Origin: Naegleria gruberi
Lineage: Eukaryota
Assembly (NCBI GenBank): GCA_000004985.1
Contig: GG738957.1
Length of the DNA stretch: 20,478 nucleotides
Reading direction: 5' to 3' (one strand)
The position numbers and the translations under genes are program-made. The notes below the pieces were generated by a model. It was not told the origin of the DNA. It did no database searches and saw only the letters and a list, made by a program, of their open reading frames with translations. This document shows, one piece after another, positions 1-19,439 of the stretch (positions are counted from its first letter, which is position 1; each line of letters begins with the position of its first letter).

Positions 1-2470
1 TCAATCTTCATAACATCAGTAAAATCATCAGATTGGACTACTGCAATGTAATCATCAAGCATGGAATGATACATTTTAAATCTTTTTCGTACTGAATCAA
101 ATCTTGACTTGTCAACGGTACCCGTAGATTGATATTCCTTCATTAAATATCTGTATTCCAACAAGATAGAAAATGGCGTAATTGGAAGAATAGCAGCGTT
201 GATCATTACTGTCAACTGGGTGTTCTGATTGGCTATAAAAACATTGCAAAGCTGGGCCACCAATACTAGCACAATAGAAATCACAATAAGGGAAATGAAA
301 AATGTAGAAAAACACCAGTTGGTACTTTCTCTTTTGATGGCTACTCTATAAATTTCTTTCGCCTTTTCTTGAGGATTAATCCTGTCATCCTTGTACATTG
401 ATGCAGATTCTAGCTCTGCAAAGTCTTCCAATTGTTGCTCAACACTTTTTCTCCTCTCATATAATGCCAAATTACGAGCCTCTTTCAAAGGATGAACTCT
501 GTTGGCTTTCTGGTGTGAGAAAGACATTTTACGTTTGCGAGCTTCATTCTCTTCCATTTGATTCGCTCTCTGTGAATATTTAACTCAAATCTCTTTAAAT
601 TCATATTACTTACTTCATAAAAATCATCAGCTGCCTCTTTCTCATAAAGAACTTGTTCCAAGAATCGAGCATAAGTTCTATAGACACTCTTCTCACGTTT
701 ACCAGAGACTAGATTCTGTAAAATGTCATTGCATGACTCAATTTCAATGGAAATGTTACGAATGGATGATTCGAGTGCTCTCTCAGAAGAATCCTCTGAT
801 AATAAGGTTTTCCAGAATGACTTTTTCAAAAGAAGAATATTTTCTTGCTTCATTAGAACTTTCTCCAAGTAATTACCAATTTCAGACATGTTAGTACATG
901 TTATTTCTTTCTTTCTTATCATGAAATTCATCTTGTCAATGAAATTGGCAGTATCTATCAATTCCTCAGTTTTCTTCAACAGCAATATGGAAGAAGCTTC
1001 AGAATTCTCAATCAAGTAGTATGTATAAACTATTGCAATAAGTCTATCTTGAAAGGATACATCAATCTTGGAGGAAGATACTGTCTTGATCAACAATTCG
1101 GCATAATCAGAATGTGAACTATCCTTCATAGACCAAATTATGAAATAATCCATATATTTAATTCCTCTGTCTAAGAATAGTTCCCCATCAAGAAGATTAG
1201 CTTCAATATTTTTCTTTACATAGGTTTGCATTAATCGAGAAACAATTTCCAATGACGCAAATCCACAAATAAACCCTAAAATGAATATTGAGAGAGCTAT
1301 TCCCATAAAAATTAAACCAACTGTCTCTGTGTCAATGTTTTTAGAGTTTGTCATGACAGAAAAAGATGTTAATGAGACAGCTGACCATAAAATAGATCCA
1401 ACTAACACTCCAAATATCACTGAATTCTCCACTCTTCTCATGAATGGAAGTCTATAGCATTGCAATACACAAAGTGAAAGGTTTTTCAAAATGAGCAAAA
1501 GTGGTGGAACGTAGTATAATGAAGGTGGAATAACTTGTTGAACAAATGCAAATCCAATATTCGAAGAGATCCACATAGTAGAAAAGAATGGACTGAATGA
1601 AATGAAAACTCCCCTACTCATAGGGTTAATGTCAACCATTATCAATGATGATATTATTGATGTAAATAATGTTGTTAATGCTCCAATGACAGAAATAACT
1701 ATCATTCCAATATTGAGAGAAGACCAACATGCATGTGATTGTTCGAATCCTGATAAGGTCATTGAAGTATAGTCACAATGTAAAAACCGCCCATAGCAAT
1801 ACATCATTGGAACTGCAAATAATACATGAAGGGTACTAAGCAGTCGAGTGATTTGCTTTGCTCTCTCCCAGTATTTACTTCCATTACTAAATGCCTTGTG
1901 ACAAAACAAAAACATTAGGAGAGTTGTGGCCGAAACTATGAATGAAATACAAGCAAAAGCAATCAATCCCTATTAAATCATTAATGGTTATGATTAAATC
2001 CAAAAACAACATACTTCATAGGGTAATAAATCAAAAGATAATGTCCATAGAAAAGCAACTGATCTCATAACCCACCCACCAACGAAACCCCACCTGTACT
2101 CTGAATAGGTGGACAAAGTTACTGTCTGTAATATCAGCCACAAATAAATAATGATAGAAATTAGTGGCCTCGTTGTTTCCTCGACATTCCTCAAAAGTAT
2201 TACTAGAGAGCCAAGCTCCTTAGTGATTTTCCTAGTAATATTGCCTTGGAGACTGGAATCTGATATCCATGATGAAAGACTCTCTTTGCTTTTTGTTGAT
2301 TGGGCTACATAACGTTCTGGTACACTAAATGTAACATTTTGTTGGGCATCATCTGATAGTGCTCCTGATGTGTCGACTGTTGTCTTGTCGTTATGAATAG
2401 AATATTGTTGTAATGCTGAATAGTTCTCTGCATATTCTCCAACGTTTTTTGTTGAGGGATTGAGGGACAT
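1..2470 (-). CDS. Multi-pass (about 9-10 TM) membrane protein of unknown family; three exons in the window (2470..2015, 1969..614, 569..1) and the 3' end continues past the left edge.
   Basis: The ATG at 2470 sits in an A-rich context (atcaaaaaaaATGtcc). Exon 1 (152 aa) has 2 TM helices. Exon 2 is the 485..1966 ORF, 7 TM helices followed by about 250 aa that look cytoplasmic. A GTAAGT donor after codon 616-614 and a CACAG acceptor ending at 570 switch from the frame of the 485..1966 ORF into a second frame that stays open from 569 to 1. That frame gives a protein-like sequence (RANQMEENEARKRK...WCFSTFFISLIVISIVLVLVAQL... with another TM). The ORF track shows only a 493-aa ORF, a 158-aa ORF and an out-of-frame shadow at 112..315. 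Confidence 0.6.
570..613 (-). other. 44-nt intron (GTAAGT...CACAG) producing a frame switch at the 3' end of the membrane-protein gene.
   Basis: The minus strand reads ...ttt tat gaa|gtaagtaatatgaatttaaagagatttgagttaaatattcacag|aga gcg aat caa atg.... After splicing, the downstream frame is open for 189 more codons to the window edge. Without splicing the gene ends 28 codons later at an in-frame TGA. Confidence 0.65.
1970..2014 (-). other. 45-nt intron (GTATGT...TTTAATAG) joining ORF 1994..2470 to ORF 485..1966 in frame (...LLPYE|GLIAFAC...).
   Basis: On the minus strand the sequence reads gaa|gtatgttgtttttggatttaatcataaccattaatgatttaatag|gga. The intron contains an in-frame TAA, and both flanking ORFs are hydrophobic TM-rich sequence. 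The length matches the second intron of the same gene. Confidence 0.5.
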
Positions 2471-2704: not shown

Positions 2705-3445
2705 ATGTCAGCACGAGGAGCTAATCACAATCTCTCAATTCTTCTTCTTTGTATTCTTCTTGTTGTAGTTCTATTGATATCCTATTCTATTGACAATGTT
2801 GAAGGAGCAGTAAAGAAGAAGAAGAAATCCAACAAGGCAGCAGAAACTGTCCTTATTGTAGTCAAGAAAAATAACCAATTTCCAGAACTTGAGGTGAGGG
2901 AATTGAAAAAGGGTCGTAAGAAACAATCCGATCCAATTCAAGCATCTTCCAACAATTATAATCATCAAGGCAAAGCTCAGAATATCCAACAACAACAAGG
3001 AGAAGCTGAAACACTCACAGAAGGAGAGGTATTAGCAGAACAAGCAAACACTGCTGCCCAACCCCAACAACCAACTTCATCTCTTCCCAACAAGACTATC
3101 GCCACAAAGGCACAATTAGAAGCCAACACAAAAACCATGATTATTATCTTTTCTATTGTCGGTTGTATTATTCTTGGATTGGCTTTAATTGGTATTATTG
3201 CTGGAGTAGCCTTTGTGGTCAAACAGAAGAGAAATTATCCTTCTTCTTCGGGTGCTGCTGCTTCATCTAATTGTTGTTCCAAGTTGAAGAATTTGTTGTG
3301 TTGCTGTTGTGCAAGGCGAGCAACCTCCCACAGTAAGAAACATGATGATTATGAGAATGGTAGTAGTGGCGGGTCAATATTGTATCGACAAGATGATGAC
3401 ATGAAGAGGCAATTGTTGGACAAGTTGCAAGATTATGAATTGTAA
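2705..3445 (+). CDS. Mucin-like type-I membrane protein, 246 aa: signal peptide, Q/T/S/N-rich ectodomain, one TM, and a cytoplasmic tail with a CC..CCCC cluster.
   Basis: ATG in context atcaaaaATGtca. Hydrophobic N-terminus LSILLLCILLVVVLLISYS. TM helix MIIIFSIVGCIILGLALIGIIAGVAFVV. The tail SSNCCSKLKNLLCCCCARR contains candidate palmitoylation cysteines. No catalytic motifs seen. Confidence 0.6.
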   Translation: MSARGANHNLSILLLCILLVVVLLISYSIDNVEGAVKKKKKSNKAAETVLIVVKKNNQFPELEVRELKKGRKKQSDPIQASSNNYNHQGKAQNIQQQQGEAETLTEGEVLAEQANTAAQPQQPTSSLPNKTIATKAQLEANTKTMIIIFSIVGCIILGLALIGIIAGVAFVVKQKRNYPSSSGAAASSNCCSKLKNLLCCCCARRATSHSKKHDDYENGSSGGSILYRQDDDMKRQLLDKLQDYEL

Positions 3446-4187: not shown

Positions 4188-5738
4188 ATGAGTAATGATG
4201 ACAACGACGTGCCCATGACCCCAAGGAGAGCATCCAGACAAGTCCAAACCAAATTCAACTCTCGTGATTATGCTCTCGTATTTGAAGAAGCTATCAAAGA
4301 TAAGGACTGTAGAGCAATTTTTAAGAGATTTCTAAAGAAGAGTCGTTCGGAAGAGTTGATGCAATTTTATGAAGAATATACAAAATATGATGAATTATTC
4401 TTGGAATGTTTGAATGCTAGTAGTTCTGGCGGTTCAGGTGGGAAAGGAAGGAGGAGTACCACAACATCAAAATCTGATGAGGATGACACAGTTTCGAATA
4501 GATTGAGTGTTAATAGTGCAGACTCTTCGACTAAATTGTTTAGGAAAGCAATTCAAAAGTTGTGGATTCAGGCACAAAGCATGATAGGTAGATTTATTCA
4601 ACAAGGTGCTGAACATGAAATTAATATTGGAAGTTTACAGAGAATGACATTTTCTAGGTGGCAAATATTGGATGACTTGACACCTGTTGTTTTTCAAGAA
4701 GCTAATTGGACTGATAATGAATATCAAACACTGTTGAATGTTTATCAAACAAAATTGGATCCTAATGTGTTATTTGAAGGATTATTAATAGCAGTATTAC
4801 AGGATTTAAAGCATGACCAATTTCCAAGATTTGTCAGAAATGATTTACTATTCGATTACTTACAAAAGAAGGGTGAGGTCTACACAAGAGCTATTGCCAT
4901 CAATGTTTCACATGGATTTAATGTTGATGTAAGATTTCAACCAAGTGATTTACAAAGTAAGGTCATTGATGAAAAGATGATTTTCTTTGGATTCACACTT
5001 TTACAAGATACACCAGATTGGGAACTAATCCTCGATAAGGATGATATTCAAGGATACATGTCCAAGACCAGTTACTTCTTTGGAAAGGATACAAGTGTTG
5101 GAAAGGAGAAGAAGGGTTTACGGCTGCATAAATCTGTTTACACATTGCCTTTCTGTATTGAGGATGTTTGGAAAATGGTGTGTAATCAAGAAAATCATTT
5201 AAAATTTGATCCAAAAGCAAATGAGGAATTCAAATTGAGAGATTTTAGGGAACCAAATCAAGATTGTGAATTTGCTGTAACGGAAACAGAAATGGGACCA
5301 AAATTCATGCCCATCATGAAAAGAAGACACTTTCCATTTATTACAACAACTTTTTATGACTCTCGTTTGAAAGGTTATGTGGTTGTCTGTAGAAGTTTCA
5401 ATGATTCTGATAATCACACCGATAGAATTCACTATGATGGTTTTGCATATACCATGTACATACCAAATGGTGATAAGGCAACCAATGTTTTCATGATTGA
5501 CTACTCAGATATCAAAATGCCATTCAAGGCGGCCATTTTGGAGAATACAGCCTACAAATTCCACATTCCAACAGTTCAGAAGGGTATGGTTAAGGTATTG
5601 AATGAACTCACCAATAATAGCACAAAGAATGTAGAGTGGAATGAGTCTATGGATGGAAGACACTGGTGGAAAATGGCAGAATTGCACAAAAATCGTTATC
5701 CTAACAAGTCATGGTATGATGAGTGGTTGAAAAAGTAG
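4188..5738 (+). CDS. RGS-domain protein with a C-terminal START/Bet v1-like domain, 516 aa.
   Basis: ATG in context aaaaccATGagt. RGS signature FEEAIKDKDCRAIFKRFLKKSRSEELMQFYEEYTKYDEL ... AQSMIGRFIQQGAEHEINIGSLQRM, interrupted by a Ser/Gly-rich low-complexity insert. The C-terminal roughly 220 aa (RRHFPFITTTFYDSRLKGYVVVCRSF...HYDGFAYTMYIPNGDKATNVFMIDYSDIKMPF) resembles the START lipid-binding fold by eye. Single exon. Confidence 0.6.
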   Translation: MSNDDNDVPMTPRRASRQVQTKFNSRDYALVFEEAIKDKDCRAIFKRFLKKSRSEELMQFYEEYTKYDELFLECLNASSSGGSGGKGRRSTTTSKSDEDDTVSNRLSVNSADSSTKLFRKAIQKLWIQAQSMIGRFIQQGAEHEINIGSLQRMTFSRWQILDDLTPVVFQEANWTDNEYQTLLNVYQTKLDPNVLFEGLLIAVLQDLKHDQFPRFVRNDLLFDYLQKKGEVYTRAIAINVSHGFNVDVRFQPSDLQSKVIDEKMIFFGFTLLQDTPDWELILDKDDIQGYMSKTSYFFGKDTSVGKEKKGLRLHKSVYTLPFCIEDVWKMVCNQENHLKFDPKANEEFKLRDFREPNQDCEFAVTETEMGPKFMPIMKRRHFPFITTTFYDSRLKGYVVVCRSFNDSDNHTDRIHYDGFAYTMYIPNGDKATNVFMIDYSDIKMPFKAAILENTAYKFHIPTVQKGMVKVLNELTNNSTKNVEWNESMDGRHWWKMAELHKNRYPNKSWYDEWLKK

Positions 5739-5992: not shown

Positions 5993-7666
5993 TTAAAATT
6001 CATTTCCCTTCTTCTTTTTCAATTTGTCAACCTTAATCTTGTCAATCTTCATTTCACGTTGGAAAGCAAGAGATTGCTTGAATCTGTGATGAGTATCCAT
6101 CATAACGAGGCATGTTTCCTTTTCCAAAATGTTAAACATATCTTCTGGAAGAGTTTCAATTTGCTTATCATTGAATTTGTCCAACTTATCCTTAACAGAA
6201 TCCACCAAAACATGTGATATATTGACAGCCATATCACCAGTCACTTCCAAGAATTCAGTAAATATTTCAAAAGCAACTTCATACTTTTTGGCTTCAACTT
6301 CTGCATATTCCCTTTCAAGTGGAGATTCCTTCTTCTTCTTTGATGATTGAGCTGACTCTGCTGAAATATCACTCGAAATATCACTCAATGCATTATTTTC
6401 TTGTCCAAATAATCTCATTTGCAAGTCAATTGAACGTTCACATAACGTTCTATAATATTGAATCTTTTCAAGAAGTAAATAATTTTCAATTGACTTTTCC
6501 TTTTCACAATGAACCTTAAAAAGAGCTCTCAAACCATCATCTTCCATTGTGTCCATTAACATGATTGCATTGGCACGACGAATCTTTTCCAAATATAAAG
6601 AATCACGATTAATAGCATAGGTAAAAACAAAGACAATGATTGGCATAATGACAAATAGTGAAATTGCAATAACAATCAATTGTACCAATGTAATACCCAA
6701 TACTTGTGAATCCTTTTCCTTTTCTCTGTTTTGTATAAAGGCAACTAATTTATCCAGACCTGACTGGAAAATTGCTTTTTCAGAATAGAAATAATCAGAA
6801 CTAATCTTTTCAATTGAATCTTCTGGTTGAGTTTTCAGCATTATCAATGCTTGATTATTCAAAGATACTACCATATTAGAAGCTTCAATAGCTGTAGAAT
6901 TGAATAAAGTTTGAATTGACTTGTCATCCACAGTTTTGAAAATTAAAAGTAAAGTTGATTTCATATCAGCAGTCTTGTTTTTAAATTCATTAATCACAGC
7001 TGAGTGACTTGGTTCATCAACATATCCTGTATAGACATGTTTCAACACCACAGCATTTGAACTTTCGAATAGAGAAGTGACCTTTCCAACAGCAATTAAA
7101 ATATCAGTTGCCTTTGTACTAGCAGTTGCAAATGCAGCAATTGCAACACCTGCCAAAACCAACAAACCAATGACAGTAACCAACATTCCCAATAAACAAG
7201 CCAATTTCATTGAAGTCAACTCAACCACACCACAACATGTACGTAAAGTAATTTTACTCTGACTAAATGAACTACCTGATTTACCACTTTCACTTGGTTG
7301 TCCAAAACCTACTTGAGATTGTCCAAGTTTCGTATTACCATTCACAGCACTACCAGATTGAATCGTAACTTGTTTCTTTCCATTACTATTATTATTAATA
7401 TTACCAGTGATACTTGTTCCACCATTTGTTTTGTTGGGATTATTAGGATTGCTGGTAATGAATGTATTTGTGTTTGGTGGTGTAAATTGATATTGTTGTT
7501 GAGTGGTTGGTTGTTGTTGTTGTTGTAGTGGAGGAGAGGATGAAGTTGAAGCCAATTCTATTGAAGTGGGGTTTGTTGTGTTAATAATATTGTTGGAATC
7601 ATGACTGTTGGAGAGTATTATTGGTGGTGGAGAGGTGGATGTCTCCGGAGAGGTTGTATTCATCAT
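5993..7666 (-). CDS. Receptor-like RGS protein, 557 aa: S/T/N/Q-rich N-terminus, TM1, about 160-aa extracellular loop, TM2, cytoplasmic RGS domain.
   Basis: Two strong TM helices (LACLLGMLVTVIGLLVLAGVAIAAFA and VLGITLVQLIVIAISLFVIMPIIVFVFTYAI). RGS motifs GLRALFKVHCEKEKSIENYLLLEKIQYYR ... KKYEVAFEIFTEFLEVTGDMAVNISHVL ... MMDTHHRFKQSLAFQ. Convergent with the previous gene, with 254 bp between the stops. Confidence 0.65.
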   Translation of the reverse strand: MMNTTSPETSTSPPPIILSNSHDSNNIINTTNPTSIELASTSSSPPLQQQQQPTTQQQYQFTPPNTNTFITSNPNNPNKTNGGTSITGNINNNSNGKKQVTIQSGSAVNGNTKLGQSQVGFGQPSESGKSGSSFSQSKITLRTCCGVVELTSMKLACLLGMLVTVIGLLVLAGVAIAAFATASTKATDILIAVGKVTSLFESSNAVVLKHVYTGYVDEPSHSAVINEFKNKTADMKSTLLLIFKTVDDKSIQTLFNSTAIEASNMVVSLNNQALIMLKTQPEDSIEKISSDYFYSEKAIFQSGLDKLVAFIQNREKEKDSQVLGITLVQLIVIAISLFVIMPIIVFVFTYAINRDSLYLEKIRRANAIMLMDTMEDDGLRALFKVHCEKEKSIENYLLLEKIQYYRTLCERSIDLQMRLFGQENNALSDISSDISAESAQSSKKKKESPLEREYAEVEAKKYEVAFEIFTEFLEVTGDMAVNISHVLVDSVKDKLDKFNDKQIETLPEDMFNILEKETCLVMMDTHHRFKQSLAFQREMKIDKIKVDKLKKKKGNEF

Positions 7667-8413: not shown

Positions 8414-9724
8414 TTATTGATATTTATGCAATTCAGGATCTTTCAACAACCTTTCCATGTGCTCTCTCCACAAACTCAATTGAACAACTAAACTACCCTT
8501 CTCAACACCTTCCACAATTTTGAAAACGCCATCCAAAATTGTTGGAATTTCACCAACGAAAATTGGACTTTCGTTTGAGAATTTCAAATCGAATAGATTG
8601 AATGCAACCCATGAGGTGGCGAAAACATCAGTTCCAAATAGGACATGCATGTCTGATGGTCTAACTTTTTTAGAAACTGAAATCCAATCAATGAAATCTT
8701 GGACATGTTGTTTGTCCATGGTTCGGTTGACTGCATGTCTGGACACAGGTGCAAGAGTGGATAAATTGGAGTGGAGAATGGATTCGACAGAGATTCTATC
8801 AGATTGTCCATTCATTACTAGATAACCAAAGTAATCTTTTTGGATATTCAATGGTTTTCTTACATTACACGAATGTAAAAGACAAGAAGTTTGAGAATTC
8901 GAAAGGTTTCTTGCTTTGGTGATGAGTTTCCACATGTGTGAACAGAGAGCATCATTGGTACTAATCCATGAGTTTGCATTCGATAGTTCAATAGATGACA
9001 TTGCTTCCTTCTTCATGGCTTGAAGTTCTTTTTCACTGAATTTAATCATCTTGGCAGTACATTGACCAATCTTGGCATACAATTCTTCATAATTGATATG
9101 TTCTTCACTTTGAGTCCAGAATGGAAATGACTTTGGTGATTCCTTATTCGAAACCTTAATCACTTCATTCCTATTCAAGCAATCATATCGTATATTGTCA
9201 ATACTTTCACCCCTGAATAGTTGAGACCATCTATGCAAGAACTGAGCATGAGAATCACCATCTCCTAATTGATGTAACAATTCTGAAACTAACAAAACTC
9301 CACCACATTTGAAATAAGTAACTTGAATTTGAAGTGGAGCATCTTGAATGCCTTTCCATTGGGTGTATAGATCTTTAGGATATTGGTCGTAATCTCCCTT
9401 ATCGAAATCATCAAGGTTAAAATTGGCTTGTGCAATGGTGAAGGGAACACCACAAGTTTCGTTTCGAATATCTACAAACCATTCACCTTCGTTATTTCTT
9501 ACTGTTCTGCCGGCGAATATTGGAAAGATAGATAAAGTCTTTTCCAGTGCACTCATCAGTTCAGTTGCATTCATAAAGTTTGGTTCCGATTTTTCATTTC
9601 TATATGCAAATTGAAAGTGAAATGGAAGAGCAGGTGCCAAATTATCAAATACTGTCAATTTGACTAGTGTTTCTTTGGAAAGTAGTGGTTTGACAAGGAT
9701 TGGAGATTTGCTGACTTGTTGCAT
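8414..9724 (-). CDS. BAHD-family (HXXXD) acyl-CoA-dependent acyltransferase, 436 aa.
   Basis: TYFKCGGVLLVSELLHQLGDGDSHAQFLHRWSQLFRG matches the BAHD core F.CGG....HxxxDG....F...W...RG. Compare HCT RFKCGG...[22 protein letters not shown]. The C-terminal DFGWG motif is degenerate (DLKFSN). The ATG has an A-rich leader (aaaaaaaATGcaa). Confidence 0.7.
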   Translation of the reverse strand: MQQVSKSPILVKPLLSKETLVKLTVFDNLAPALPFHFQFAYRNEKSEPNFMNATELMSALEKTLSIFPIFAGRTVRNNEGEWFVDIRNETCGVPFTIAQANFNLDDFDKGDYDQYPKDLYTQWKGIQDAPLQIQVTYFKCGGVLLVSELLHQLGDGDSHAQFLHRWSQLFRGESIDNIRYDCLNRNEVIKVSNKESPKSFPFWTQSEEHINYEELYAKIGQCTAKMIKFSEKELQAMKKEAMSSIELSNANSWISTNDALCSHMWKLITKARNLSNSQTSCLLHSCNVRKPLNIQKDYFGYLVMNGQSDRISVESILHSNLSTLAPVSRHAVNRTMDKQHVQDFIDWISVSKKVRPSDMHVLFGTDVFATSWVAFNLFDLKFSNESPIFVGEIPTILDGVFKIVEGVEKGSLVVQLSLWREHMERLLKDPELHKYQ

Positions 9725-9888: not shown

Positions 9889-12472
9889 TTATAAACCATT
9901 CATGTATTTCACATCACTTTCTAACATGCTTTCAGTTACAACACCGATATTTACACAATATCTTGATAAATCAACATTCTCATTGATTTTCTTTCTTGAT
10001 AATTTAATCAAATGATCCCATAATTTGATTCTATCTGGTTGGTAGGTCTGTAATTCTTCAATTAATCCAATCATGTATTGAACATCTTCATCTGCCATTT
10101 GATTGGTAAACATTGACACGAATTTTTCACATAGCATTGCCAGCTTGTCATTTAATTTCTTTGATTCCAATTCATAAAGCCATTCATCTTCTTTCACATT
10201 ATTGCTTCTTATCAACTCATACACTGTTTGCACATTTTCAAATCCAGAGAAATGTTCACTCGAATATCGGTCAACTGGAGCAAACACAAAGCGAGAATTT
10301 GCCTTATGATTCAAATAGGTACTCTCATCTACAAGAATATTAGTAGAAATAACACTATTCAAATAAGCCAAATCTCTGGAGCATTTCATCGAACGTCCAA
10401 ACATTGCATAATATCTCATTTGTTTGTTTCCGATATTTCCTTGAAGACATGATCCAGTACTTATTCCAATATGCAAGTCAACTGGTGTTTTCTTTTCATT
10501 GGTTAATGTTTCATTGAGAGAATTGAAGAATGATTTGATTTTAAGGGATGTTTCTAGAATGGTAATGTTATCAGGGTGAATGACTGCATATTCATCAACA
10601 CTCTTCGTGTGAACATCAACTTTCATTGTCTTACATAGTTGGAGAATGTTAGTATAGCATTTTGATAGCAAATTACTCAAATCATAGGTGTTATCGATCA
10701 TGTTAAATCCTGTAATCTTGATATACATTACAGAGCTGTTAAGGGTTGACAAACCAATTTTGAAGAGATTCATCTTGTTATTGGTATTGTTATCAACACC
10801 AAGGAAGAATGATGAAGTATGTGAGGATTTCTCTTCCAAGTATGATGAGTTCTCCTTTTTTAGGTAATGTTGTTTGGCTGAATTTTCAATGACATGTTGA
10901 TCTGAAGGTGTTGTAATTACTTTAGGTTTCTGAGGATCATTACTTTCCAATTGATTAAGAATATTCTCTGGAAGGAAAGCTCTAAATTCCTGTAACCACT
11001 TGACTGTCAAGTACAAACTCACATAGATATTTCTAATTTCGGTAAAGATTGAAGAGTGTCTCTCGATTTCTTCCAAACTCATTACTTCAATCTTTGCAAA
11101 ATCGGATTGAATGATTCGAAGAGGTTTCGTTATGGCATATCCTATCAAGATACTAAACATCATTCCAATTAAGGTGACTCCAATAGCAACACCCAAAATG
11201 ACGTAACTGCTAAGAATGACATTTTCCATAATTTCACTCTCCTCACACACTATTGTCATTCTCCATTTCAAATTATCTATTGAATAGGATGAACTGGAAA
11301 TCATGTAGGAAATTCCATCTTCTCCTGTAACTTGTGTAATATCTCCTTCTGATACATTCATTGATAGATACTTGTTCATTAGTGAACCAGCATTTCGAAC
11401 TGTTACATTTCTTACTGGAATTCTGTCAAAACCAACTCCCGTAATATTCAAATTGGCTCCAATAATCATATCATTGGCATATTCAGTCAGAATGATATAT
11501 CCTCTATTCAAAATCTTTAATTTTGATAAAAAGGTTGAAATTTTACCTAGTGAAAGATTGATCTTTGAAATTCCAATTCTTCTCTTTTCGGCTGGCCACA
11601 CTGTTCTGTCGTAAACTGGAGATGAATAATAAATTGATTGAACTCCATCAGAGAGCACTATTTACATTCAAGAAAACAGCATGTGAATATAGTAAATAAA
11701 AAATATGTGAATATAGAAAGGAAATGAATAACTTACCCTTATAAGGAGGACCAAAACCACCAGGTGAAGTTGGATAGGCATTGAATATTCTCAATGATTC
11801 CTTGTAGTAATCTGTAGTATTTATAAAATACTTTGGAACGCTTGTTGAAACCTTATCATACATGGGCACCACTGATGTCAAATTCAAATCGCAAATGGTT
11901 AATTTTAGATTATTAAAATTTACGAAAGCCCAACTTTTGGTGTCCACAGCAAAAAGTCCATTATTATTCAATTCACCAAAACAAATATTCAACATTGTAA
12001 CATTGTTGTAAATTATTCTACTGTGAAAGTATGGAACTAGCGAACTATCGGTATTGATTACTTTTCTGTGATAATCATCAGCCAGAGTGATGGATAAACT
12101 TTTTGCTAGCATTAAGGGTCTATCAAGAAAGTTTATAATCTTCTCCTGGATAGTCTGGACAAGTACTTTTGTCGATTGTATTGATTCCCTTTGATGCATT
12201 ACATAAGCAGAGAGCCAAACACTGAATGATGTAGCAATGACCAATATCATGATTAGCATGACGAGGAATAACCTAAAGGAAAGACAAAAGCCTAGTAAGG
12301 GATTTCTATCATGTATGCTCTTACTACTCTGTATTTCCTCATTATTATTAATATTATTATTGTTGTTGTTGTTGTTGTGATTAATATTGTTAGTGGTTGT
12401 ATTGTTGTTACTGAAGGAATAGAGATTGCTTGCAGAATAGCTATCATGATGATGAGGTGCAATTCTAGTCAT
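9889..12472 (-). CDS. Receptor-type class III adenylate/guanylate cyclase, ACG-like topology, 834 aa in two exons (12472..11737 and 11657..9889).
   Basis: The first ATG (MTRIAPHHH) is at 12472; the ORF track's 'M' at 12568 is a GTG. Exon 1 has a poly-Asn tract, TM1 (FRLFLVMLIMILVIATSFSVWLSAYV) and an extracellular region. The extracellular region continues in exon 2 (about 340 aa in total, CHASE-like). It is followed by TM2 (VILSSYVILGVAIGVTLIGMMFSILIGYAI), a linker and the cyclase homology domain (...YIKITGFNMI...KSVDEYAV...DLHIGISTGSCLQGNIGNKQMRYYAMFGRSMKCSRDL). The exons are joined by a phase-1 GTAAGT...AAATAG intron (K|V-LSDG). Confidence 0.7.
11658..11736 (-). other. 79-nt phase-1 intron of the cyclase gene (GTAAGT...AAATAG).
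   Basis: The minus strand reads cct cct tat aag g|gtaagttattcatttcc...gaatgtaaatag|tg ctc tct gat gga. The 11648..12568 ORF otherwise terminates at TAA. The reading frame is restored exactly and the combined length (2505 nt) is divisible by 3. Confidence 0.75.
12338..12412 (-). repeat. (AAT/AAC)n simple-sequence repeat encoding a poly-Asn tract (NNINHNNNNNNNNINNN) in the cytoplasmic N-terminus of the cyclase.
   Basis: The plus strand shows attattattaatattattattgttgttgttgttgttgtg. Antisense reading gives the poly-Val 'shadow ORF' 12311..12538. Confidence 0.8.
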
Positions 12473-13036
12473 TTTGTTAGAGTTGGAGAGTTTAAAGTCA
12501 GCGAGATTGATACCACTATTAGACGCTGGTTCACATGATACAACCTTAATTGCGCACACAACAAACACCGTGGTTGGAGTGTTACTCCTTATATGATACT
12601 AACTGTGTGTAAGTTCTCTATCTCTCTCGCTTGTTGAGGAGTCACAAACATAACAGAATCAAAATGAAGGTTCATCATACCTCTTGATTTAGTGAGCGTA
12701 AAAATGGAGATTCTGCGAATGATTCTGTTGCGTGTTCAAATATTTCGCCTTAATGATATTAATTTGTGTGAGATGGTGACCAATTAGTGGTTTGTTGGCA
12801 TATAAGTTCGTATCACCTCGTTGCCTTAATGAGACAACTCAAGGTGGTTTTCTTACAGCACATGTTATTTTAAAAAGCAGGAATAGGATCACTGATTCCA
12901 CAACTATGGAATATTACTAACCTGACGTTTATATTTATTTTATATTTATTATACATTCATTTTATTTATAATGAATAATTGCATTTTGAATTTTCTTTAA
13001 AAAAAATACTTAAACAAACAATTTGTATTGTTAAAT

Positions 13037-17823: not shown

Positions 17824-19439
17824 NNNNNNNNNNNNNNNNNNNNNNNNNNNNNNNNNNNNNNNNNNNNNNNNNNNNNNNNNNNNNNNNNNNNNNNNNNNNN
17901 NNNNNNNNNNNNNNNNNNNNNNNNNNNNNNNNNNNNNNNNNNNNNNNNNNNNNNNNNNNNNNNNNNNNNNNNNNNNNNNNNNNNNNNNNNNNNNNNNNNN
18001 NNNNNNNNNNNNNNNNNNNNNNNNNNNNNNNNNNNNNNNNNNNNNNNNNNNNNNNNNNNNNNNNNNNNNNNNNNNNNNNNNNNNNNNNNNNNNNNNNNNN
18101 NNNNNNNNNNNNNNNNNNNNNNNNNNNNNNNNNNNNNNNNNNNNNNNNNNNNNNNNNNNNNNNNNNNNNNNNNNNNNNNNNNNNNNNNNNNNNNNNNNNN
18201 NNNNNNNNNNNNNNNNNNNNNNNNNNNNNNNNNNNNNNNNNNNNNNNNNNNNNNNNNNNNNNNNNNNNNNNNNNNNNNNNNNNNNNNNNNNNNNNNNNNN
18301 NNNNNNNNNNNNNNNNNNNNNNNNNNNNNNNNNNNNNNNNNNNNNNNNNNNNNNNNNNNNNNNNNNNNNNNNNNNNNNNNNNNNNNNNNNNNNNNNNNNN
18401 NNNNNNNNNNNNNNNNNNNNNNNNNNNNNNNNNNNNNNNNNNNNNNNNNNNNNNNNNNNNNNNNNNNNNNNNNNNNNNNNNNNNNNNNNNNNNNNNNNNN
18501 NNNNNNNNNNNNNNNNNNNNNNNNNNNNNNNNNNNNNNNNNNNNNNNNNNNNNNNNNNNNNNNNNNNNNNNNNNNNNNNNNNNNNNNNNNNNNNNNNNNN
18601 NNNNNNNNNNNNNNNNNNNNNNNNNNNNNNNNNNNNNNNNNNNNNNNNNNNNNNNNNNNNNNNNNNNNNNNNNNNNNNNNNNNNNNNNNNNNNNNNNNNN
18701 NNNNNNNNNNNNNNNNNNNNNNNNNNNNNNNNNNNNNNNNNNNNNNNNNNNNNNNNNNNNNNNNNNNNNNNNNNNNNNNNNNNNNNNNNNNNNNNNNNNN
18801 NNNNNNNNNNNNNNNNNNNNNNNNNNNNNNNNNNNNNNNNNNNNNNNNNNNNNNNNNNNNNNNNNNNNNNNNNNNNNNNNNNNNNNNNNNNNNNNNNNNN
18901 NNNNNNNNNNNNNNNNNNNNNNNNNNNNNNNNNNNNNNNNNNNNNNNNNNNNNNNNNNNNNNNNNNNNNNNNNNNNNNNNNNNNNNNNNNNNNNNNNNNN
19001 NNNNNNNNNNNNNNNNNNNNNNNNNNNNNNNNNNNNNNNNNNNNNNNNNNNNNNNNNNNNNNNNNNNNNNNNNNNNNNNNNNNNNNNNNNNNNNNNNNNN
19101 NNNNNNNNNNNNNNNNNNNNNNNNNNNNNNNNNNNNNNNNNNNNNNNNNNNNNNNNNNNNNNNNNNNNNNNNNNNNNNNNNNNNNNNNNNNNNNNNNNNN
19201 NNNNNNNNNNNNNNNNNNNNNNNNNNNNNNNNNNNNNNNNNNNNNNNNNNNNNNNNNNNNNNNNNNNNNNNNNNNNNNNNNNNNNNNNNNNNNNNNNNNN
19301 NNNNNNNNNNNNNNNNNNNNNNNNNNNNNNNNNNNNNNNNNNNNNNNNNNNNNNNNNNNNNNNNNNNNNNNNNNNNNNNNNNNNNNNNNNNNNNNNNNNN
19401 NNNNNNNNNNNNNNNNNNNNNNNNNNNNNNNNNNNNNNN
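17824..19439. other. Assembly gap (1616 N) between the unique subtelomeric sequence and the telomere-associated sequence.
   Basis: The run of n is continuous. The ORFs reported across it (17723..19462, 17752..19446 and 17769..19457) are artefacts of translating N. Confidence 0.99.

What the first reader, a model, noticed from the sequence alone, without database searches (positions are those of the whole stretch)
1..2470. Hidden three-exon gene with 44-45-nt introns, one of which shifts the frame
The ORF track suggests a 158-aa ORF, a 493-aa ORF and, downstream, only an out-of-frame 67-aa shadow. By hand, a GTATGT...TAG intron (45 nt) and a GTAAGT...CAG intron (44 nt) join these into one gene of at least 793 aa. 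The second intron moves translation into a frame that is open for 189 codons to the window edge and encodes a charged helical segment plus another TM helix. ORF-based or prokaryote-style annotation would truncate this protein and miss the distal part. It also shows the genome tolerates introns of about 45 nt, so similar tiny introns may be missed elsewhere. The protein, with about 9-10 TM helices and a roughly 250-aa cytosolic loop or tail, is of unknown family and could be a channel or sensor.
Basis: seen in the sequence. Interest (0 to 1): 0.5.

Follow-up and report, generated by a model that had tools for sequence, protein, structure and literature searches.

The report
Naegleria TmcB-type membrane protein gene, two short introns
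The three-exon gene with two introns of about 45 bases is real, but it is an ordinary gene of the amoeba Naegleria gruberi that is already in GenBank with the same splice junctions, and it belongs to the known TmcB family, whose full-length relatives are membrane-bound PAS-domain nucleotide cyclases.

Summary
On the minus strand, exon 1 (2470-2015), a 45-nt GTATGT..TAG intron (2014-1970), exon 2 (1969-614), a 44-nt frame-shifting GTAAGT..CAG intron (613-570) and exon 3 (569-1, open to the edge) give at least 793 aa.

Comparison with relatives supports both junctions. Fifteen homologues align across them without gaps. The family motif LYxEANxIEEEExKK spans junction 2. A homologue on a metagenome contig, 36-41% identical, has introns at the same two codon boundaries but with different lengths (43 and 37 nt).

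It is not hidden. The window is a whole 20,478-bp Naegleria gruberi scaffold, and GenBank's "predicted protein, partial" (685 aa) uses both junctions.

The family is not unknown either. Pfam TPR_TmcB scores above its cut-off. Of 25 long relatives, 22 carry a PAS domain and 19 a class III cyclase domain. The window therefore probably holds the 5' half of a protein of about 1,600 aa; the cyclase half is inferred. I found no support for a channel.

Novelty and interest are low.

The parts
2015..2470 (-). Exon 1 (aa 1-152). It holds the ATG at 2470, a poorly conserved N-terminus predicted with low confidence, and the first membrane helices. It ends ...LLPYE.
   Evidence: In-frame TAA four codons upstream of the ATG. 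Identical to GenBank model P0001.
1970..2014 (-). Intron 1: 45 nt, GTATGT...TAG, phase 0, 22% GC, with in-frame stops. It lies just ahead of the membrane helix that begins in exon 2.
   Evidence: Homologues align without a gap across PYE|G. L001 has a 43-nt intron at the same codon boundary.
614..1969 (-). Exon 2 (aa 153-604). It holds the rest of the membrane bundle and most of the cytosolic TPR_TmcB helical domain. It ends ...DDFYE.
570..613 (-). Intron 2: 44 nt, GTAAGT...CAG, phase 0, 23% GC. Its removal shifts the reading frame.
   Evidence: The conserved motif LYxEANxIEEEExKK spans the junction. L001 has a 37-nt intron at the same codon boundary, which also shifts the frame.
1..569 (-). 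Exon 3, incomplete (aa 605-793). It holds a charged linker, a membrane helix at aa 694-712 (bases 246-302), and the start of the next domain. It runs off the scaffold end.
   Evidence: It aligns in order with P0004 residues 589-775 and P0006 residues 676-816.
1..326 (-). 108 codons of exon 3 (aa 686-793) that the GenBank partial model P0001 leaves out.
   Evidence: P0001 ends ...AIKRE at aa 685. The tail is open and codon usage favours the proposed frame (+11.8 against -56 and -50). It is homologous to relatives.
537..898 (-). Pfam TPR_TmcB domain (aa 510-615). It spans intron 2.
1187..2167 (-). Multi-pass membrane helix bundle (aa 102-413, about 8-9 helices). It spans intron 1.
   Evidence: Hydropathy. 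AlphaFold2 model: pLDDT above 90 over most of the region, pTM 0.80.
112..315 (-). 67-aa shadow ORF in the wrong frame. It is not a gene.

Best explanation
This is the 5' part of a nuclear protein-coding gene of Naegleria gruberi, on the minus strand. Two ordinary short GT-AG spliceosomal introns (45 and 44 nt) interrupt it. The end of the scaffold cuts it off after codon 793.

Shown: the encoded protein belongs to the TmcB family. It has an N-terminus predicted with low confidence (aa 1-70), a bundle of about 8-9 membrane helices (aa ~100-413), a cytosolic TPR-like helical domain (TPR_TmcB, aa ~420-620), a charged linker, and a further membrane helix (aa 694-712).

Inferred from relatives: the missing 3' half encodes a further region of several hundred residues with predicted membrane helices, then a PAS sensor domain and a class III adenylate/guanylate cyclase catalytic domain. 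The whole protein would be about 1,500-1,700 aa. On that reading it is a membrane-anchored, PAS-regulated producer of cAMP or cGMP, one of the many cyclases in Naegleria genomes. The TmcB-type module would act as membrane anchor and regulatory scaffold.
For: Organism and annotation: P0001, 'predicted protein, partial [Naegleria gruberi]', is 100% identical, sits on a 20,478-bp contig, and uses both junctions.

Splicing: fifteen homologues align without a gap across both junctions, and the motif LYxEANxIEEEExKK spans junction 2. Homologue L001, 36-41% identical in all three exons, has introns at the same two codon boundaries. They have the same phase but different lengths (43 and 37 nt) and are no better conserved than the coding flanks. 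Composition and codon usage agree.

Family: PF25474 TPR_TmcB scores above its gathering cut-off. The exhaustive search gave 91 hits. All the named ones I looked up were Naegleria or Willaertia, apart from one dictyostelid (Synstelium), which aligned over positions 59-612.

Architecture of relatives: among the 25 homologues of at least 1,300 aa, 25 have TPR_TmcB, 22 have PAS_9 and 19 have Guanylate_cyc. The family profile matches solved class III cyclases at up to E = 2e-47, and FixL/DosP-type PAS domains.

The exon 3 tail aligns with the equivalent segment of the 1,620-aa Willaertia PAS-cyclase P0004.

Literature: Naegleria has at least 81 cyclases (PMC9928731). tmcB acts in the cAMP pathway of Dictyostelium sexual development (Muramoto et al. 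2005, cited in PMC8516963).
Against: I could not examine any transcript data. The C-terminal half is not in the window, so PAS and cyclase are inferred from paralogues that are only 21-27% identical. The closest relatives are uninformative on this point: P0002 (462 aa), L001 and P0006 are short gene models or are cut off by the end of their contig. Six of the 25 long relatives show no cyclase domain. At least one N. fowleri family member is annotated at only 951 aa. No function has been tested for any heterolobosean member.
Confidence: 0.85

Rival explanations
1. It is a TmcB-type membrane protein with no enzymatic output domain, like the Dictyostelium TmcB proteins or the 951-aa N. fowleri model. 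The gene would end a few hundred codons beyond the scaffold edge, and the protein would act only as a membrane scaffold or regulator of cAMP signalling.
For: Six of 25 long relatives have no Guanylate_cyc hit. P0025, an N. fowleri 'TmcB/TmcC TPR repeats domain-containing protein', is 951 aa. The closest paralogue model, P0002, has no cyclase.
Against: P0002 is clearly a truncated model: it ends inside the TPR domain. The P0025 cluster also holds a 1,506-aa member. Most long relatives (19 of 25) carry the cyclase. The exon 3 tail aligns with the cyclase-bearing P0004.
Confidence: 0.22
2. There is no splicing. The region holds two or three separate genes or ORFs (158 aa, 493 aa ending at the stop at 485, and an independent downstream gene), as a prokaryote-style reading would suggest.
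For: The uninterrupted ORFs exist. No transcript data could be examined.
Against: Homologues are collinear across both junctions with no gaps. A conserved motif is split by intron 2. The same two intron positions occur in a relative that is 36-41% identical, with different intron lengths. Read-through of intron 1 hits stops after 6 codons. GenBank's eukaryotic model splices both introns.
Confidence: 0.02
3. The multi-pass membrane domain is an ion channel or transporter. This is the 'channel' half of the first reader's suggestion.
Confidence: 0.05

Closest known systems
GenBank/JGI gene model 'predicted protein, partial [Naegleria gruberi]' (P0001, 685 aa)
   Same: Same locus, same ATG and the same two splice junctions. 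100% identical over 685 aa.
   Different: The database model stops at ...AIKRE (window base 327). The open, homology-supported frame continues for 108 more codons to the scaffold edge.
TmcB family (tiny macrocysts protein B, Dictyostelium; Pfam PF25474 TPR_TmcB)
   Same: The TPR_TmcB domain scores above its gathering cut-off and follows an N-terminal multi-pass membrane domain. A dictyostelid protein is hit over the whole module. The family is linked to cAMP signalling (PMC8516963, citing Muramoto 2005).
   Different: Sequence similarity to dictyostelids is weak (E = 1.3e-4). Most heterolobosean members add PAS and cyclase domains. No role in sexual development or macrocysts can be inferred for Naegleria.
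Heterolobosean TmcB-PAS-cyclase proteins (for example Willaertia magna KAL9649878.1, N. lovaniensis XP_044555414.1, N. gruberi XP_002673480.1)
   Same: They align in order from about aa 70 to the window edge, including the conserved PY, RRxENS, FWK and EANxIEEEE motifs.
   Different: Identity is only 21-27%. Their PAS and Guanylate_cyc halves have no counterpart in the window because the scaffold ends.
Metagenome homologue L001 (ENA ERZ27315067, k141_2091734)
   Same: The closest relative for which I had DNA. It is 36-41% identical in all three exons, and both introns are at identical codon boundaries and in the same phase.
   Different: Its introns are 43 and 37 nt rather than 45 and 44. A third 40-nt intron (L001 3610-3649) lies beyond the point that corresponds to window base 1. 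The organism is unknown.
Mammalian and mycobacterial membrane class III adenylate cyclases (for example AC9 6r3q, AC8 8buz)
   Same: The family's C-terminal catalytic domain matches them strongly, at up to E = 2e-47. The general logic is the same: a membrane anchor plus a cytosolic cyclase.
   Different: The N-terminal membrane module here has no detectable sequence or fold relation to their 6-TM bundles. Relatives have a single catalytic domain preceded by PAS. None of this catalytic part is in the window.

Membership tests
U2-type GT-AG spliceosomal intron | GT donor with an extended consensus, and an AG acceptor | tested here: met
   GTATGT...TAG (45 nt) and GTAAGT...CAG (44 nt).
U2-type GT-AG spliceosomal intron | Removal is needed to restore a continuous reading frame that matches homologues in order | tested here: met
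   Read-through stops after 6 and 42 codons. The spliced product aligns without gaps to 15 homologues, and a conserved motif spans junction 2.
U2-type GT-AG spliceosomal intron | Intron position is conserved in a related gene while intron length and sequence are free to vary | tested here: met
   L001 has introns of 43 and 37 nt at the same codon boundaries and in the same phase.
U2-type GT-AG spliceosomal intron | Spliced transcripts are observed | not testable with these tools
   None of the tools I used gives read-level transcript data. N. gruberi RNA-seq exists as PRJEB23822 (PMC6142364).
TmcB family (PF25474 / tiny macrocysts protein B-related) | TPR_TmcB domain above Pfam's gathering score | tested here: met
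   42 bits against a cut-off of 27, E = 1e-10, aa 510-615, profile positions 18-124 of 125.
TmcB family (PF25474 / tiny macrocysts protein B-related) | A multi-pass membrane domain N-terminal to the TPR domain | tested here: met
   Hydropathy peaks. The AlphaFold2 helix bundle at aa 102-413 has pLDDT above 90 over most of its length.
TmcB family (PF25474 / tiny macrocysts protein B-related) | Detectable homology to dictyostelid members over the whole module | tested here: met
   Synstelium polycarpum P0088: E = 1.3e-4, query 59-612 against protein 2-558. P0088 also carries TPR_TmcB (25 of 25). The match is weak. D. discoideum TmcB itself was not compared.
TmcB family (PF25474 / tiny macrocysts protein B-related) | A role in cAMP signalling or sexual development | not testable with these tools
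   Known only from the Dictyostelium literature.
Class III adenylate/guanylate cyclase with PAS sensor | Guanylate_cyc (PF00211) catalytic domain in the protein | tested here: inconclusive
   There is no hit in the 793 aa available. In relatives the domain lies at about aa 1330-1610, which is beyond the scaffold end. It is present in 19 of 25 long relatives.
Class III adenylate/guanylate cyclase with PAS sensor | A PAS domain upstream of the catalytic domain | tested here: inconclusive
   Not in the window. Present in 22 of 25 long relatives.

The most novel reading that the evidence does not exclude
The heterolobosean TmcB-PAS-cyclase proteins, of which this gene is probably one, could be a distinct, uncharacterised class of receptor cyclase. 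Their 8-9-helix membrane module has no relative among solved structures. Their PAS domain is closest to the haem-binding O2 sensors FixL and DosP, which suggests gas- or redox-regulated cAMP/cGMP production in Naegleria. Nothing in the window tests this directly, because the PAS and cyclase parts lie off the scaffold.
Probability: 0.15. Interest if true: 0.45.

Novelty: already known. Interest (0 to 1): 0.1.

Why it matters
It matters little as a discovery. The gene, its two introns and its family domain are already in public databases. Three practical points remain. First, the GenBank model for this locus could be extended by 108 codons. Second, the gene is incomplete because the scaffold ends, so its probable PAS-cyclase half needs a better assembly. 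Third, the case shows concretely that prokaryote-style gene callers applied to heterolobosean contigs in metagenome collections break genes at introns of 37-45 nt. The resulting fragment 'proteins' then populate sequence databases. The TmcB-PAS-cyclase family is experimentally untouched and may be worth study, but this window adds nothing specific to that.

Tried and rejected
I used an alignment of P0001 plus the exon 3 translation instead, but the profile kept only 685 positions. The tail therefore had to be tested by pairwise BLASTP.

2. The second homologous-protein search, with the full-length alignment A2, was dominated by bacterial PAS proteins. It added nothing about the N-terminal module.

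3. The look-up of encoding contigs has no record of P0001 or P0002. I could not compare intron positions in N. gruberi paralogues. The metagenome homologue L001 served instead.

4. The afdb50 fold library was unavailable.

6. Alternative acceptors for both introns (introns of 120, 159 and 104 nt) are rejected, because they would delete residues that align with homologues.

7. A third intron at the point where P0001 ends (aa 685) is rejected. Homologues align straight through it, and no donor consensus is present.

8. I did not search for the missing 3' half among N. gruberi partial proteins. With dozens of paralogues and no overlap, no assignment could be proven.

Full report
**What is in the sequence**

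I read bases 1-2700 on the minus strand and translated them.

- The ATG is at 2470, with an in-frame TAA four codons upstream.
- Exon 1 is 2470-2015, 152 codons, ending ...LLPYE.
- Intron 1 is 2014-1970, 45 nt, GTATGT...TAG, and contains in-frame stops.
- Exon 2 is 1969-614, 452 codons, ending ...DDFYE.
- Intron 2 is 613-570, 44 nt, GTAAGT...CAG. Its length is not a multiple of three.
- Exon 3 is 569-1, 189 codons, open to the window edge.

The 67-aa ORF at 112-315 is a wrong-frame shadow. The true exon 3 frame is missing from the ORF list only because that list omits ORFs that run off the end.

**Is it more than chance?**

- Given the window's base composition, a 189-codon open frame has a probability of about 4e-7. 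The last 108 codons alone have about 2e-4.
- Scored with the codon usage of exons 1 and 2, exon 3 gets +25.5 bits in the proposed frame, against -64 and -90 in the other two.
- The introns are 22-23% GC, while the exons are 34-38%.
- I scanned both strands of the whole window for GT[AT][AT]GT donors paired with TAG, CAG or AAG acceptors 30-200 nt downstream. Only three such introns join long open frames where read-through hits a stop within a few dozen codons. Two are these. The third is a 79-nt intron at 11736-11658 in another gene.

**Where the window comes from, and what is already annotated**

A search of the large protein collection returned P0001, "predicted protein, partial [Naegleria gruberi]". 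It is 685 aa, 100% identical, and sits on a contig of exactly 20,478 bp. The window is therefore a whole small N. gruberi scaffold, with an assembly gap of N at 17824-19439.

P0001 contains ...LLPYEGLIAF... and ...DDFYERANQMEE....

The one difference is that P0001 ends at ...AIKRE (aa 685, window base 327). That is 108 codons short of the scaffold end.

**Independent evidence for the splice junctions**

I could not examine transcript data, so I used comparison with relatives.

An exhaustive HMMER search found 91 relatives. Fifteen of them, aligned with the spliced product, cross both junctions without any gap. A conserved PY sits just before junction 1. The family motif LYxEANxIEEEExKK straddles junction 2; in the window it reads DFYE|RANQMEENEARKRK. 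Only the frame-shifted exon 3 frame encodes the second half of that motif.

The closest relative for which I could obtain DNA is a metagenome contig, L001 (4,489 bp). It carries a homologue that is 41%, 38% and 36% identical across exons 1, 2 and 3.

- L001 has a 43-nt GTAAGT...CAG intron after ...FLPYE|GCIAV.
- It has a 37-nt GTATGT...TAG intron after ...ELYE|RANQIEELE.
- These are the same codon boundaries and the same phase as in the window, but the lengths differ. The second again shifts the frame.

Conserved position with free length is the classical signature of real introns.

ENA's prokaryote-style gene calls on L001 break the gene into four ORFs at these points. P0003 ends ...ELYE+VCI*, which is read-through into the GTATGT donor. 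Several N. fowleri relatives of 1,500-1,700 aa are likewise represented in ENA/Logan only by fragment-length products.

**The extension beyond the GenBank model**

The exon 3 translation aligns in order with residues 589-775 of the 1,620-aa Willaertia protein P0004 (E = 7e-9) and with residues 676-816 of P0006 (E = 6e-13). Both alignments run straight through the point where P0001 stops, across the membrane helix, to the last codon of the window. L001 behaves the same way.

**What the protein is**

Pfam gives TPR_TmcB (PF25474) at aa 510-615, with E = 1e-10 and 42 bits against a cut-off of 27. The family is therefore not unknown.

All the named relatives I looked up were Naegleria gruberi, N. 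fowleri, N. lovaniensis or Willaertia magna, apart from one dictyostelid (Synstelium), which was hit over the whole module at E = 1.3e-4.

The AlphaFold2 model of P0001, built with 61 aligned relatives, is confident (mean pLDDT 84.6, pTM 0.80).

- Residues 1-70 are modelled with low confidence (pLDDT below 50).
- Residues 102-413 form a bundle of about 8-9 long helices that coincide with the hydropathy peaks.
- Residues 421-622 form an all-helical repeat domain.
- A low-confidence charged linker follows.

**What the missing half probably is**

Full-length relatives are 1,500-1,800 aa. Of the 25 relatives of at least 1,300 aa, all have TPR_TmcB, 22 have a PAS domain and 19 have the class III adenylate/guanylate cyclase catalytic domain. 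The family profile matches solved membrane adenylate cyclases at up to E = 2e-47, and its PAS part matches FixL/DosP-type sensor domains best.

Naegleria genomes are reported to encode at least 81 cyclases (PMC9928731). N. gruberi has an unusually large set of PAS proteins (bioRxiv 10.1101/2023.04.23.537977). In Dictyostelium, tmcB acts in the cAMP pathway during sexual development (Muramoto et al. 2005, cited in PMC8516963).

My best reading is that the window holds the 5' half of a membrane-anchored PAS-cyclase of the TmcB type. The gene model and the family assignment are shown. The PAS and cyclase output is inferred, at roughly 65-75%. The main rival is a TmcB-type protein without a cyclase.

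**Are 45-nt introns surprising here?**

No. N. gruberi is reported to have 1.7 exons per gene and a mean intron length of 203 bp. For the related N. fowleri, read mapping used a 30-bp minimum intron length "based on an assessment of predicted genes" (PMC8296547). The JGI/GenBank model had already called these two introns. L001 shows 37-, 40- and 43-nt introns in the same gene family.

**Verdict**

The gene model is right, and slightly better than the database entry. What it describes is an ordinary, already annotated Naegleria gene from a known family. Novelty: already known. Interest: low.

Noticed in passing
window 1-326 (minus strand): The GenBank partial model for this locus (P0001, 685 aa) stops 108 codons before the scaffold end. 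The frame stays open there, and the sequence is homologous to relatives.
   Followed up: yes
window 9889-12568 (minus strand); intron 11736-11658: This is a second signalling gene. A 287-codon and a 588-codon open frame are joined by a 79-nt GTAAGT...TAG intron (phase 1, 23% GC). The downstream part carries a Guanylate_cyc domain (E = 3.7e-8).
   Followed up: partly
window 4188-5738 (+) and 5993-7666 (-): Two convergent ORFs each carry an RGS (regulator of G-protein signalling) domain. Together with the two cyclase-related genes, they make this small scaffold rich in signalling genes.
   Followed up: no
window 8414-9724 (-): A 436-aa ORF has a full-length Pfam 'Transferase family' (PF02458) match, E = 5.5e-46.
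   Followed up: no
window 17824-19439: An assembly gap of 1,616 N. The three 'ORFs' of about 560-580 aa listed across it are artefacts of the N run.
   Followed up: yes
L001 977-4489 (ENA ERZ27315067 k141_2091734); clusters of P0040 and P0049: On L001, prokaryote-style gene calls split the homologue at its small introns, giving pieces of 143, 406, 239 and 296 aa. The N. fowleri clusters likewise hold ENA/Logan fragment products (for example 793, 103 and 712 aa) beside a 1,717-aa GenBank protein.
   Followed up: partly
L001 3610-3649: A third small intron (40 nt, GTAAGT...TAG, phase 1) in the homologue, just before the conserved FxFLWxNR...FC motif. A matching intron may lie in the part of the N. 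gruberi gene that is off the scaffold.
   Followed up: partly
family profile A3, positions about 1207-1334 (not in the window): The PAS domain of the full-length relatives matches the haem-binding O2 sensors FixL (E = 1.9e-9) and DosP best among solved structures. This hints at gas or redox sensing by these cyclases.
   Followed up: no
window 2705-3445 (+): A divergently oriented 246-aa ORF has an N-terminal hydrophobic segment, a Lys-rich stretch, a central membrane helix and a Cys-rich tail. It has no Pfam match.
   Followed up: no
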